Source: Haliotis cracherodii (Eukaryota). Taken from it: 64,000 nucleotides of DNA. The notes below the pieces were generated by a model. It was not told where the DNA came from, searched no databases, and was given only the letters and a program-made list of their open reading frames with translations. Position numbers and translations under genes: made by a program. The stretch spans positions 50,902,001 through 50,966,000 of the forward strand of contig NW_027266286.1 of assembly GCF_022045235.1 (NCBI RefSeq), in the 5' to 3' direction. This document shows, piece after piece, positions 30,043-64,000 of this stretch. Each line of letters starts with the position of its first letter. Positions within the stretch are counted from its first letter, which is position 1.

Positions 30043-31134
30043 AGTGGTAAGTTTGAGTGGTAAAAATTCACGTCAGCTACGAGAGAAGCACAGAGAGCGA
30101 ATGACACTTCCCCACAGACGGCCCGGCTGATACTCCGGAGGCGCGGACGTCGGAGGAGACACCTTGCTTGTTGTGGCTGATAGCTGCACGCTTACAAGCG
30201 TGTATTTGTATCCGAATAATCACTTCTTAATCAAGGAAAGTTTCAATTTCAACAACACAGTTAGGTAGTAAAAACATTTGGCTACATTTCGGTTACAATA
30301 GCAACACTCACGGGTGAAGTTCAAAGCCACACGTGATGTTTCCAATGAAGCGACCCAGTCTAAAATGTAGACATCGCTACTTTCAAAAGCACATTTTTAG
30401 CCTTGAGACTCAAGTTTTTGCATTTTAAACGTTGCCTGTCAATTCTCAATATATCTAACTATGAAAGTAAAACACAACACTCATCAGTATTGTCTATGAT
30501 AAGCTAGAACAAGCGTTCAAACAACGACAATGAAGCACGTTTTTCTGACGACTTCGCCATTTTGCAACAGAAAACATTTGACAGTATATTTCTGGAAACA
30601 TAATTTTAGTCACTTCAATAAAGTTGAAACTAACTTTGTCATAACAAGTAAGTAACGGGGATTTTACTTTCAGGAAAACAGTCTACTAAGACGAGGATCT
30701 CGGGACACAAGCACTTAGGGCGCGAAGCCCCGAACAGTAACATATATACATAGGTGTTTAGATCACTCGATCGGTCGTCACAGATTAAGTCTTTTTGCCT
30801 GTCTTAATAGCACGATATTAGTAGGGGTCTTCGTCGTTTGGATGTTAATATTACCAGAACAATATAGGCTACCATGCATCAACGAAAAGTGAATGTTTGA
30901 GACGAGAGGCCGGATCGAGTGAGCGAGTGTGCCGGGCCTCGTGTTAAACAGTGATCACATGTTTTTACAACGGCTAGATTTTGTAGATTTTAATCCCTGT
31001 AAATATACATCATAAATCAACAAACACAACATGTCTACTGAACCCGCTGAAAACGCGAGCATGCTGTTTTCATGGCAATGTCTTTTTACCAATGTGCGGT
31101 GTGTATATGTAGCTAATGTTTGCCGATAAGCATT

Positions 31135-31253
31135 GTCTACGGCCATACCACGTTGAAAACACCGGTTCTCGTCCGATCACCGAAGTTAAGCAACGTCGGG
31201 CCCGGAGAGTACTTGGATGGGTGACCGCCTGGGAACACCGGGTGCAGTAGACA
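31135..31253 (+). rRNA. 5S: 5S rRNA
   Basis: 119 nt GTCTACGGCCATACC...GTAGACA; box A AGTTAAGC, box C TGGATGGG; TTTTT terminator; TATAT at about -31. Confidence 0.98.
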
Positions 31254-32424
31254 TTTTTGCTATGCGATTCCCACTTTTTTCTTTTTCGACCATAAGGTGC
31301 ACTTGCCTCATTCACATCTGATGTAATCATACACTTTTATTTCCTTGTAAATGGACCCACTCATGCATGTCTGCTCAAAGACATAGCTGCCAGCCATGTA
31401 TTCTTACATACCTTTACAGAAAGGACTTTTCCACTATACATGTGATCATATTCAGTTGTCAGTTCACCCAACTCGTCAACTATTCTGAAGGCATGTACGT
31501 CCTTTTCGCCACATAAAGGTGTTTGCGTGCACCGATAATTGACTATTTTACTTACTTTCTTACTTTCAAAGCATGAATATATAATATATACATGTAAAAT
31601 CATAATGTTGTTCGTGTTAAAAGTCTCAGCTCACATCTCTTTGCCTACACAGATAAGAAAAGGAGAAAGAGTTAGATCGTACAGAGCGCCTGTCAATAGG
31701 AGTTCACTGGCTTGCTGCTGGAAAATGTATTTTGAAAGCTGTGAGCAAGCTGATCACTGTTGACACGCTTTAAAAATATGGAAAAAAACGATGCGACTGT
31801 GTGATAAACCAGCTATTTTATGTTCCCCGTTCTAGCTGATCGCTTGCAAACGTACTTTAGACTTATTAGAAAGTATTTCCATACATTTCTCTCGCCATAC
31901 AACAGGTAGATGTGACATGTTGCAGGTAGGGGGCTAGGCGAAACGCACACGACCAAGGGCGCACAACTCTTGGCGCTCTATATGAAAAGTCGTGCATAGG
32001 CGAGGCGTGTGTCGGTAAAACACCCCGTGGATGTCTGGCCCTTATCGCCGTTTTACACCTTTGAACACAACGTGCATGTGCAGCTACACACATAGGAAGT
32101 CTGCACTCAGGATATTATATATATCAACGACACTAATCGCCTCACTTTCCAACAGACACCCATTTTGGGGGTTAATAAACAAGCATAACAACAGTCATTA
32201 GTGTGAAGACACACTACCCCCAACCCCCACCCCCACCCCAACACACACACACAATAAAATCCCTGACGTACCTTTATCATCATCACATATGTGTGTTATG
32301 TGCGTTGCTGCTACGTTATCTCTGTTACCACAAGAACCTGCACTTTATTTCTGCTATACTGCTAATATAAATATTTATTGTTTTGTTATCAGTGTTTTCA
32401 AGTTTTCTTTTGGGGTATTTGGAT

Positions 32425-32440
32425 GGCCCTGAAAAGGGCC
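32425..32440 (-). terminator. Histone 3' stem-loop (also at 41312, 44291, 53544, 56555, 59569, 62584)
   Basis: GGCCCTTTTCAGGGCC preceded by CCAAA and followed by purine-rich CAAAAGAAAAC; AATAAA signals further downstream at 32374-32379 and 32344-32349. Confidence 0.95.
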
Positions 32441-32483
32441 TTTGGACCACAGAAATGTGGAGCGAAGGCGTGACAATGAGAGC

Positions 32484-61297: not shown

Positions 61298-61416
61298 GTC
61301 TACGGCCATACCACGTTGAAAACACCGGTTCTCGTCCGATCACCGAAGTTAAGCAACGTCGGGCCCGGAGAGTACTTGGATGGGTGACCGCCTGGGAACA
61401 CCGGGTGCAGTAGACA
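61298..61416 (+). rRNA. 5S: 5S rRNA
   Basis: Consensus copy. Confidence 0.98.
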
Positions 61417-62642
61417 TTTTTGCTATGCGATTCCCACTTTTTTCTTTTTCGACCATAAGGTGCACTTGCCTCATTCACATCTGATGTAATCATACACTTT
61501 TATTTCCTTGTAAATGGACCCACTCATGCATGTCTGCTCAAAGACATAGCTGCCAGCCATGTATTCTTACATACCTTTACAGAAAGGACTTTTCCACTAT
61601 ACATGTGATCATATTCAGTTGTCAGTTCACCCAACTCGTCAACTATTCTGAAGGCATGTACGTCCTTTTCGCCACATAAAGGTGTTTGCGTGCACCGATA
61701 ATTGACTATTTTACTTACTTTCTTACTTTCAAAGCATGAATATATAATATATACATGTAAAATCATAATGTTGTTCGTGTTAAGTCTCGGCTCACATCTC
61801 TTTGCCTATACAGATAAGAAAAGGAGAAAGAGTTAGATCGTACAGAGCGCCTGTCAATAGGAGTTCACTGGCTTGCTGCTGGAAAATGTATTTTGAAAGC
61901 TGTGAGCAAGCTGATCACTGTTGACACGCTTTAAAAATATGGAAAAAAACGATGCGACTGTGTGATAAACCAGCTATTTTATGTTCCCCGTTCTAGCTGA
62001 TCGCTTGCAAACGTACTTTAGACTTATTAGAAAGTATTTCCATACATTTCTCTCGCCATACAACAGGTAGATGTGACATGTTGCAGGTAGGGGGCTAGGC
62101 GAAACGCACACGACCAAGGGCGCACAACTCTTGGCGCTCTATATGAAAAGTCGTGCATAGGCGAGGCGTGTGTCGGTAAAACACCCCGTGGATGTCTGGC
62201 CCTTATCGCCGTTTTACACCTTTGAACACAACGTGCATGTGCAGCTACACACATAGGAAGTCTGCACTCAGGATATTATATATATCAACGACACTAATCG
62301 CCTCACTTTCCAACAGACACCCATTTTGGGGGTTAATAAACAAGCATAACAACAGTCATTAGTGTGAAGACACACTACCCCCCACCCCCACCCCAACACA
62401 CACACACACACAATAAAATCCCTGACGTACCTTTATCATCATCACATATGTGTGTTATGTGCGTTGCTGCTACGTTATCTCTGTTACCACAAGAACCTGC
62501 ACTTTATTTCTGCTATACTGCTAATATAAATATTTATTGTTTTGTTATCAGTGTTTTCAAGTTTTCTTTTGGGGTATTTGGATGGCCCTGAAAAGGGCCT
62601 TTGGACCACAGAAATGTGGAGCGAAGGCGTGACAATGAGAGC

Positions 62643-63206
62643 TTAAGCCTTCTTTGGCTTGACTGCCTTCTTCTTGGGGGTCTTGACCTTCTTGGGTTTG
62701 GCTGCTGCCTTCTTGGGTGTCTTCGCCTTCTTGGGCTTGGCTGCAGCCTTCACCTTCTTTGGTGACTTAGCGGCCTTCTTAGTGGCTGTTTTGGGTTTCT
62801 TGGCAGCAGCTGGCTTCTTGACTTTCTTGGGGGATTTGGCAGCCTTCTTTGGTTTGGCAGCTGCCTTAGCCTTCTTGGGTTTTTCGGCTTTCTTTGCCTC
62901 GCCAAGACGGAATGATCCAGCGGCTCCAGTTCCCTTTGATTGCTTCAGTGCGCCGTTCTTGACTCCATTTTTCAAAGCAGTCTTGATGCGAGCATTGATG
63001 GCCACCTGGTTGTCACCAACCTTGTAGTTGGCCAAGATGTATTTCAGAACAGCCTGTCGGGAAGAACCACCCCTCTCCTTCAGGGATGAAATAGCTTTCT
63101 TGATCATCTCCAAATAGGTAGGATGTGCGGCAGCCTTCTTAGGCTTGGCAGCAGCCTTCTTCTTGGGAGTCTTGACAGCAGCGGGGGCAGCAGCAGCATC
63201 AGCCAT
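62643..63206 (-). CDS. H1: Histone H1, 187 aa
   Basis: As above. Confidence 0.98.
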
Positions 63207-64000
63207 AGTGGTAAGTTTGAGTGGTAAAAATTCACGTCAGCTACGAGAGAAGCACAGAGAGCGAATGACACTTCCCCACAGACGGCCCGGCTGATACTCC
63301 GGAGGCGCGGACGTCGGAGGAGACACCTTGCTTGTTGTGGCTGATAGCTGCACGCTTACAAGCGCGTGTGCTTTTTCGTGTATTTGTATCCGAATAATCA
63401 CTTCTTAATCAAGGAAAGTTTCAATTTCAACAACACAGTTAGGTAGTAAAAACATTTGGCTACATTTCGGTTACAATAGCAACACTCACGGGTGAAGTTC
63501 AAAGCCACACGTGATGTTTCCAATGAAGCGACCCAGTCTAAATTGTAGACATCGCTACTTTCAAAAGCACATTTTTAGCCTTGAGACTCAAGTTTTTGCA
63601 TTTTAAACGTTGCCTGTCAATTCTCAATATATCTAACTATGAAAGTAAAACACAACACTCATCAGTATTGTCTATGATAAGCTAGAACAAGCGTTCAAAC
63701 AACGACAATGAAGCACGTTTTTCTGACGACTTCGCCATTTTGCAACAGAAAACATTTGACAGTATATTTCTGGAAACATAATTTTGGTCACTTCAATAAA
63801 GTTGAAACTAACTTTGTCATAACAAGTAAGTAACGGGGATTTTACTTTCAGGAAAACAGTCTACTAAGACGAGGATCTCGGGACACAAGCACTTAGGGCG
63901 CGAAGCCCCGAACAGTAACATATATACATAGGTGTTTAGATCACTCGATCGGTCGTCACAGATTAAGTCTTTTTGCCTGTCTTAATAGCACGATATTAGT

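What the first reader, a model, noticed from the sequence alone, without database searches (positions are those of the whole stretch)
30043..64000. Tandem unit with only linker histone H1 plus 5S rDNA
Seen: each ~3-kb unit has one H1 and one 5S gene on opposite strands, ~1.1 kb apart head-to-head and ~1.2 kb tail-to-tail, with no core histone genes. Known: 5S linked to whole histone clusters occurs in some crustaceans, mussels and fishes, and H1-only 'orphon' clusters occur in Mytilus. Inference: a 1:1 H1-only/5S unit is an unusual combination that couples the copy number of a Pol II and a Pol III gene. H1 is also a known repressor of Xenopus oocyte 5S genes.
Basis: partly seen in the sequence, partly recalled or inferred. 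Interest (0 to 1): 0.7.

Follow-up and report, generated by a model that had tools for sequence, protein, structure and literature searches.

The report
Abalone histone H1–5S rRNA tandem array
In what is likely an abalone genome, every assembled 5S ribosomal RNA gene alternates one-to-one with a linker histone H1 gene in a 3-kb tandem repeat that lacks the core histones, a pairing already seen under the microscope in mussels and likely the result of a 5S gene hitch-hiking on an H1 repeat rather than of shared regulation.

Summary
The 3,012-bp unit holds one stem-loop H1 gene (−) and one intact 5S gene (+), 1,106 bp apart head-to-head and 1,222 bp tail-to-tail. The array runs 220 kb to an assembly gap and continues 68 kb on another contig, about 83 units in strict alternation. 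All 82 5S genes found genome-wide lie in it. Core histones form a separate H1-free, 5S-free 4,252-bp quartet. H1 is 97% identical to a Haliotis protein. The kind is published: H1/5S interspersion without core histones was shown by fibre-FISH in four Mytilus species (PMC4106214), and this scan's notes mention mussel H1/5S arrays. Not found in my searches: a gastropod case, the sequence layout, and H1-linked 5S as the only 5S rDNA. The same antiparallel layout occurs in two related species and on three metagenome contigs, two of them in the abalone H1 clade with unalignable spacers, so the linkage is likely old. Dispersed LINE families hit the array six times, five just upstream of the H1 or 5S start. 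Best reading: neutral hitch-hiking fixed by concerted evolution.

The parts
29966..30042 (-). Truncated H1 (first 25 codons) at the array's left edge
   Evidence: blastn; sequence
31135..31253 (+). 5S rRNA gene, copy 1
   Evidence: RF00001 111.5 bits
32484..33008 (-). H1 ORF, 174 aa; stem-loop 32425-32440; separated from its promoter by a LINE
33081..38993 (-). LINE X copy 1 (ORF1 37425-38771 with a 354-bp internal deletion; ORF2 33619-37428, 1269 aa); (ACTG)n tail; 11-bp target duplication at 33070-33080 and 38994-39004, abutting the H1 cap-site motif
40028..40146 (+). 5S rRNA gene, copy 2
41371..41895 (-). H1 ORF, 174 aa; stem-loop 41312-41327; promoter box 41994-42014
43003..43121 (+). 5S rRNA gene, copy 3
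44350..44874 (-). H1 ORF, 174 aa; stem-loop 44291-44306; separated from its promoter by a LINE
44947..51214 (-). LINE X copy 2 (ORF1 49292-50992, 566 aa; ORF2 45288-49295 with endonuclease, RT and RNase H, C-terminus in a shifted frame); same junctions and target duplication as copy 1 (44936-44946 and 51215-51225); 99.7-100% identical to it
52260..52378 (+). 5S rRNA gene, variant with three substitutions, one of them in box A
   Evidence: 95.9 bits
53603..54166 (-). H1 ORF, 187 aa (the majority form); stem-loop 53544-53559; cap-site motif 54221-54228; promoter box 54265-54285
55273..55391 (+). 5S rRNA gene with internal boxes and a T5 terminator
56614..57177 (-). H1 ORF, 187 aa; stem-loop 56555-56570; promoter box 57276-57296
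58284..58402 (+). 5S rRNA gene
59628..60191 (-). H1 ORF, 187 aa; stem-loop 59569-59584; promoter box 60290-60310
61298..61416 (+). 5S rRNA gene
62643..63206 (-). H1 ORF, 187 aa; stem-loop 62584-62599; promoter box 63305-63325. The array continues past the window
26933..29871 (-). Internally deleted LINE X (96-97% to copy 2) whose 5' junction is again the H1 cap site, behind a duplicated 100-bp promoter piece (29866-29968); its 3' end joins non-array DNA and marks the array's left border
1025..2630 (.). LINE X fragment joined to a displaced 627-bp piece of the H1-5S spacer (96%)

Best explanation
This is a tandem array of about 83 assembled 3-kb units, each holding one stem-loop H1 gene and one oppositely oriented 5S rRNA gene; it is the genome's only assembled 5S rDNA and its main H1 locus, and it likely arose when a 5S gene was captured into an H1-only repeat that was then homogenised by unequal crossing-over or gene conversion. 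Each gene is predicted to be read independently. H1 would be read by Pol II from a TATA-less promoter that shares a 21-bp box with the unlinked H2B, H4 and dispersed H1 genes, so co-ordination with the core histones would be in trans, and its mRNA would end at the stem-loop. 5S would be read by Pol III from its internal promoter to a T-run. The linkage is inferred to persist because it costs nothing and because the free 5S array was lost, so copy numbers now move together as a by-product. It is inferred to predate the genus. The start-proximal regions of both genes are inferred to be open chromatin that dispersed LINEs hit preferentially.
For: SHOWN. (1) Strict H/5 alternation of 82 H1 starts and 82 5S genes on C23 and C39, plus one 5S with a 1-bp insertion seen by BLAST. 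(2) 82 of 82 genome-wide 5S pattern hits and 47 of 47 scored RF00001 matches lie in the array. (3) 76 of 82 H1 starts give full 174- or 187-aa ORFs. (4) The core quartet H2B/H4/H3/H2A has a 4,252-bp period, 6 units on C37, with no H1 or 5S. (5) Spacer divergence averages 0.34% and rises from 0.155% between neighbours to 0.88% at 80 units apart, highest at the array ends. (6) The promoter box lies upstream of the array H1, all three dispersed C34 H1 genes, H2B and H4; 129 genome hits against 0 for the control. H2A, H2B and H4 have TATA-like words and the array H1 has none. (7) One contig of a second species carries both 5S and H1, and a contig of a third runs from the H1 promoter through 5S. 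(8) Metagenome contigs L099 and L100 (L100 circular, 2,819 bp) carry antiparallel H1+5S without core genes and fall in a 100/98 H1 clade with the window; their spacers do not align with it. KNOWN: 5S linkages to other multigene families are repeatedly gained and lost (PMC6204057 and PMC13525598, passages); PMC4106214 reads the mussel case the same way. INFERRED: the direction of capture, independent transcription, neutrality.
Against: Retention of the same orientation and of a spacing near 1.1 kb (1,106, 1,101 and 1,338 bp head-to-head) after the spacers lost all similarity, together with the mussel cases, is more persistence than a 'gained and lost' model needs and could mean selection. No expression was shown: the one RNA-labelled run laid is a guess and holds spacer DNA (H1 contig depth 55 against 15). 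The array crosses a gap and the core array ends at a contig start, so unassembled 5S-only arrays, or H1 in unassembled core units, are not excluded. L105, in the same H1 clade, shows no 5S within 718 nt upstream and 2,009 nt downstream.
Confidence: 0.7

Rival explanations
1. The linkage is old and kept by selection: the Pol III gene (TFIIIA/TFIIIC-bound) would act as a barrier or open-chromatin seed for the H1 promoter, or copy numbers of H1 and 5S would be co-scaled for oogenesis and cleavage. The mussel and abalone arrays would then descend from one ancestral molluscan unit.
For: All 3 of 80 metagenome H1 loci that carry 5S have it antiparallel and lack core histones; none of the 43 loci with core histones has 5S. 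Spacing is similar although the spacers are unalignable. Four Mytilus species have H1/5S interspersion without core histones (PMC4106214).
Against: The 3-versus-0 split is not significant (Fisher p=0.09), and many contigs are too short to hold a unit. L099 and L100 are not independent of the window (same H1 clade). The H1 promoter box is shared with histone genes that have no 5S neighbour. One unit has lost about 945 bp of the head-to-head spacer and both genes remain intact. Named Mytilus H1 proteins do not group with the abalone array H1 (weak backbone). The Mytilus unit orientation could not be read.
Confidence: 0.2
2. H1 made from the array represses or tunes the neighbouring 5S genes, as somatic H1 does for Xenopus oocyte-type 5S genes, making the unit an autoregulatory module.
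Against: H1 protein is made in the cytoplasm and acts genome-wide, so linkage gives no cis advantage (established knowledge). There is one 5S class: 49 of 82 copies are identical and the rest differ at a few positions, with no oocyte/somatic pair to switch between.
Confidence: 0.05
3. The picture is an assembly product: a collapsed or mis-joined repeat hides core histone genes or other 5S arrays.
For: The C23 array ends at a 100-N gap; the C39 and C37 arrays begin at contig starts. Only 6 core units are assembled. Some frameshifts lie beside the gap.
Against: The unit is recovered in runs of other studies and in two other species. Contigs of those species pass through the 5S gene into the same spacers without a break. 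Depth ratios of unit to flank (about 65-80 for run X8, about 130 for run X17, worked out by hand and noisy) are of the order of the assembled count.
Confidence: 0.05

Closest known systems
Mytilus linker histone / 5S rDNA interspersed cluster (Pérez-García, Morán, Pasantes 2014; PMC4106214; abstract and passages read)
   Same: H1 and 5S alternate in a tandem cluster with no core histone genes; the core quartet lies elsewhere.
   Different: That work shows it by FISH signals, not by a sequenced unit, and in bivalves. Mytilus also has H1-free 5S clusters and an H1-only cluster; here no other 5S gene and only a few dispersed H1 genes were found. Orientation and spacing in Mytilus are not known to me.
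Histone quintet/quartet + 5S units: Artemia, M. galloprovincialis quintet with two 5S, Asellus quartet, Potamopyrgus, Hydractinia (as described in passages of PMC4106214, PMC13525598, PMC5011920; primary papers not read)
   Same: A Pol III 5S gene is carried in a Pol II histone repeat.
   Different: Those units contain core histones; this one contains H1 only.
H1-only 'orphon' clusters of Mytilus edulis (Drabent 1999; seen only as cited in PMC4106214)
   Same: H1 is tandemly repeated apart from the core quartet.
   Different: Every unit here carries a 5S gene.
Sequence-specific non-LTR retrotransposons of multicopy genes (R1, R2, Mutsu in 5S; table passage of PMC10946416)
   Same: Full-length young LINEs sit in the array at recurring positions, with target duplications.
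   Different: These families are dispersed genome-wide with unrelated flanks; the bias is positional, not to one target sequence.

Membership tests
Replication-dependent histone H1 gene | Intronless ORF with a linker-histone globular domain | tested here: met
   PF00538 E=1.9e-29; ORFs
Replication-dependent histone H1 gene | 3' stem-loop followed by a purine-rich downstream element | tested here: met
   RF00032 39.9 bits at 7 of 7 genes; purine-rich element 12 nt downstream (its identity as the U7 site is recalled)
Replication-dependent histone H1 gene | S-phase expression as a non-polyadenylated mRNA | not testable with these tools
   No raw RNA reads were offered
Pol III type-1 5S rRNA gene | Full-length 5S with box A, intermediate element, box C and a T-run terminator | tested here: met
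   RF00001 positions 1-120; boxes and T5 in 7 of 7 copies, one with a box A change (box positions recalled)
Pol III type-1 5S rRNA gene | Transcribed into ribosomal 5S RNA | not tested
   Inferred from its being the only 5S class found
Mytilus-type H1/5S interspersed array | H1 and 5S alternate in tandem | tested here: met
   Strict alternation of 82 H1 starts and 82 5S genes
Mytilus-type H1/5S interspersed array | No core histone genes at the locus | tested here: met
   the gap itself is unseen
Mytilus-type H1/5S interspersed array | Common descent with the mussel unit (same orientation, orthologous H1) | tested here: inconclusive
   No mussel DNA could be fetched; the H1 tree separates them, with a weak backbone
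Histone quintet/quartet + 5S repeat | Core histone genes inside the unit | tested here: not met
H1-only orphon cluster | No other gene in the unit | tested here: not met
   5S in every unit
Sequence-specific non-LTR retrotransposon | Most copies at one conserved target sequence | tested here: not met
   LINE X: 8 of 11 3' ends lie elsewhere, with other flanks. Families A/B/C: 2,485 hits of a shared 3' motif; the 30 sampled have varied flanks

The most novel reading that the evidence does not exclude
An antiparallel H1-only/5S unit is an ancient molluscan arrangement, inherited by both mussels and abalone-lineage gastropods and kept by selection. The Pol III gene keeps the TATA-less H1 promoter open, or ties linker-histone to ribosome supply, and the resulting open windows are germ-line hot spots that unrelated LINE families hit again and again.
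Probability: 0.17. Interest if true: 0.72.

Novelty: new member of a known kind. Interest (0 to 1): 0.42.

Why it matters
How 5S genes come to be linked to histone repeats, and whether the linkage does anything, is named as an open question in a 2026 review of over 250 species (PMC13525598). That review lists only quartet/quintet linkages, and Haliotis is absent from its main text and from the two supplementary files held. This array is the simplest case, one Pol II gene and one Pol III gene. It is fully resolved at sequence level, is apparently the genome's only 5S source, and holds natural variants (a spacer deletion, promoter-severing LINE insertions) that could test cis effects. It also gives a second mollusc class for deciding between ancestry and convergence. 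If neutral, it is one more example of 5S hitch-hiking and a convenient FISH marker.

Tried and rejected
Site-specific H1-targeting LINE: suggested by three X copies at the H1 cap site, rejected because 8 of 11 X 3' ends lie on other contigs with other flanks, and the two full copies share both junctions and 99.7-100% identity, so they are one insertion duplicated with its unit. A 5S-targeting element (Mutsu-like): rejected, because the families upstream of 5S belong to a group with 2,485 dispersed 3' ends. Tail microhomology as the whole cause of the hot spots: TAAG occurs 25 times in the unit, and the three best matches (AAGTAAG) in mid-spacer are unused. A larger repeat containing core histones: none in 30 kb left of the window, in the array, in 94 kb right of the gap or in 22 kb beyond the C39 end. 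Core histone copy number from reads: not obtained, so the H1:core ratio is open. Runs X16 and X17 are poor for depth (94% of laid reads run on into unlike sequence; many C>T and G>A changes). The viral contig scan found no H1; 0 of 10 H1 loci in prokaryote-genome contigs carry 5S. Association of 5S with core-free H1 loci in metagenomes is not significant (p=0.09). LINE density in the array exceeds the genome mean (5 events against 0.61 expected, P=4e-4), but all lie in the C23 part and none in 68 kb of C39 array; the 176 kb of flanks hold 0, too few for a local test. The HINFP identity of the promoter box is recalled only: the paper was not held and searches did not confirm it. Eirín-López 2004 was not held. 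The scan's own notes held no look-alike DNA.
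Full report
1. Observation. Self-comparison shows a repeat of about 3,012 bp from roughly 29.9 kb to the window end, 98-99.7% identical between copies. Rfam gives 7 full-length 5S genes on + and 7 histone stem-loops on −. Seven intronless lysine-rich ORFs on − are linker histones (PF00538 for the one scanned). Distances are 1,106 bp head-to-head and 1,222 bp tail-to-tail. All 7 5S copies have the internal boxes and a T5 run; one has a box A change (box positions recalled).

2. Organism and extent. The best named hit to the H1 is a Haliotis rufescens protein at 97% identity over the full length; its cluster holds several copies each from other Haliotis species. 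I take the genome to be an abalone and do not name it further. Neighbouring stretches show the array running 220 kb on C23 to a 100-N gap and 68 kb from the start of the unplaced contig C39. A script found 60+22 H1 starts and 59+23 5S genes in strict alternation; BLAST adds one 5S with a 1-bp insertion. Of 82 H1 starts, 73 give 187 aa, 3 give 174 aa and 6 are broken. Of 82 5S genes, 49 are identical. A 26-nt 5S pattern with up to 2 mismatches has 82 hits genome-wide, all in the array, against 0 for the control; the 47 scored RF00001 matches agree (47 of about 41,000 rough candidates were scored). PF00538 gives 88 matches from 96 candidates; outside the array there are three dispersed H1 genes on C34, two divergent H1-like genes and two weak hits. 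PF00125 gives 30 matches from 45 candidates, and the only cluster is on C37: six 4,252-bp units of H2B, H4, H3 and H2A, with no H1 or 5S. That array starts at a contig end, so its true size is unknown and was not measured.

3. Evolution of the array. The 5S-to-H1 tail spacer differs by 0.34% on average among 82 units, 0.155% between neighbours and 0.88% at 80 units apart, and most at the two ends. This is the pattern of local unequal exchange; placing C39 after the C23 gap is my inference. The three left-edge H1 genes lack a 39-bp tail repeat.

4. Regulation. A 21-bp box lies 40-60 bp upstream of a cap-site-like TCATTCG in the array H1. The same box precedes H2B, H4 and all three C34 H1 genes. 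It has 129 genome hits against 0 for the control. Of 18 other hits sampled, none lies in a histone gene and about 8 belong to one dispersed repeat, so the box is not exclusive to histones. H2A, H2B and H4 have TATA-like words; the array H1 does not. I recall the box core as an H4 site II / HINFP-type motif but could not confirm this from a paper. The inference is that H1 is co-ordinated with the unlinked core genes in trans and needs nothing from 5S. Expression was not shown.

5. Relatives. Fifteen of 19 listed runs hold the unit or part of it, from organism A and two other coded organisms. In run X8 (organism B) a single 2,522-nt contig covers spacer-5S-spacer and goes on across H1. In run X12 (organism C) a 2,076-nt contig runs from the H1 promoter through 5S, and H1 lies on a second contig that overlaps it by only 12 nt. 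Depth ratios of unit to flank, by hand from that table, are about 65-80 (X8) and about 130 (X17); the tool warns that contig depth is no copy number, and X16/X17 look damaged or chimeric. Among the best 80 of 428 metagenome H1 loci, 3 carry 5S (L099, L100, L102), all antiparallel and without core genes; 43 carry core genes and none of these has 5S (Rfam confirms the three among 20 loci scanned; Fisher p=0.09). L100 closes as a 2,819-bp circle with spacings of 1,101 and 1,020 bp. In a 52-row H1 tree (globular domain plus flanks; a subset of hits that I chose), the window, Haliotis, L099, L100, L105 and seven unnamed proteins form a 100/98 clade apart from Patella, Gigantopelta, caenogastropods, heterobranchs and bivalves, likely vetigastropods (inference). 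Their spacers do not align with the window except for the 25-nt promoter box. L105 shows no 5S on its 3.3 kb; L102 lies outside the clade. None of 10 H1 loci from prokaryote-genome contigs has 5S.

6. The LINEs. All have ORF1 and an ORF2 where full-length, with tetranucleotide tails; Pfam finds endonuclease, RT and RNase H in the one ORF2 scanned. I call them I-group-like from recalled definitions; the clade was not tested. There are six independent insertions. X abuts the H1 cap site (11-bp duplication; copied with its unit, plus a decayed derivative at the left edge). C lies 94-104 bp upstream of the cap. B1 and D, two different families, share one site 2-10 bp upstream of 5S. B2 lies 45 bp upstream of 5S. 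A lies about 170 bp beyond the H1 stem-loop (copied once). One unit has a deletion of about 945 bp whose ends fall within a few bases of the C and B1/D sites (read by eye). Five of 6 fall within 150 bp upstream of a start (binomial P=5e-5, window chosen after seeing the data). The families are not sequence-specific: 8 of 11 X ends lie elsewhere, and the A/B/C motif has 2,485 hits with varied flanks in the 30 sampled. I infer a preference for open chromatin at gene starts. X lies in the H1 sense direction behind the H1 promoter, so it would be read from that promoter while the downstream H1 loses it (inference). An unchecked scan note (e1-9848751) describes a retrotransposon re-hitting the H1 promoter in a likely mussel H1/5S array; this is a lead, not support.

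7. Prior knowledge. PMC4106214 (abstract and passages) shows by fibre-FISH alternating h1 and 5S signals with no core histone signal in four Mytilus species, calls it a first report, sees no obvious advantage, and attributes it to 5S invasion of tandem families. Mytilus also has free 5S and H1-only clusters. PMC13525598 (section 13, passages, and a term search of 2 supplementary files) lists only quartet/quintet linkages and has no Haliotis entry. PMC5011920, PMC6204057, PMC10946416, PMC12153100, PMC10827134 and bioRxiv 10.1101/2025.08.11.669513 were seen as passages. Searches for an abalone or gastropod report found none. The library lacks most subscription journals, where mollusc cytogenetics is often printed, so this is not proof of absence.

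8. Verdict. The feature is real and is a new member of a known kind. Most likely (0.7) it is a captured 5S gene fixed in an H1 repeat by concerted evolution, with independent transcription; a selected, ancient linkage is the live alternative (0.2). What lifts it above routine is that it is the only 5S rDNA found, that the layout outlasted spacer turnover in a wider gastropod clade, and that LINE insertions cluster at the starts. Interest 0.42.

Noticed in passing
window 33081-38993, 44947-51214; G000:C23 50.975-51.118 Mb (L004-L019): Six independent insertions of dispersed LINE families, five just upstream of the H1 cap site or the 5S start; two different families share one site. Three are full-length with both ORFs open.
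   Followed up: yes
G000:C23:50,977,541-50,977,632 (L005): One unit has lost about 945 bp of the head-to-head spacer; the deletion ends coincide with two LINE insertion sites, suggesting endonuclease nicks without insertion.
   Followed up: partly
L082:6740-6784: Reads and contigs of three species match only 5S positions ~48-92 (internal promoter) and carry other flanks, suggesting a dispersed 5S-derived SINE family.
   Followed up: no
L026, L028, L030, L067, L070: Five LINE 3' ends from two family groups sit at about the same position of another dispersed repeat, a second possible insertion hot spot.
   Followed up: no
L176-L178, L180, L181, L185, L186, L189, L192: A dispersed repeat family carries the histone promoter box, in some copies as several tandem variants.
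   Followed up: partly
G000:C34:67.46-67.85 Mb (L087-L089) and C34:37.34 Mb (L093): Three dispersed H1 variants have the promoter box but no canonical stem-loop match; a divergent H1-like gene has a stem-loop but no box.
   Followed up: partly
L131:1037-3524: A metagenome contig has a stem-loop H1 gene about 900 bp from the 3' part of an antiparallel 28S rRNA gene, i.e. a histone-45S rDNA linkage in another animal.
   Followed up: no
L102: Antiparallel H1+5S (996 bp tail-to-tail) with an H1 outside the abalone clade: a possible independent or deeper case.
   Followed up: partly
window 1025-2630: A displaced 627-bp piece of the array spacer, joined to an old LINE X fragment 27 kb left of the array.
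   Followed up: no
window 3800-26000: A dense field of decayed LINEs, a DDE_3 transposase fragment (24114-24548) and an integrase fragment (4569-4940).
   Followed up: no
L194-L199: Animal histone quintet arrays are present as contamination in a bacterial MAG record.
   Followed up: no
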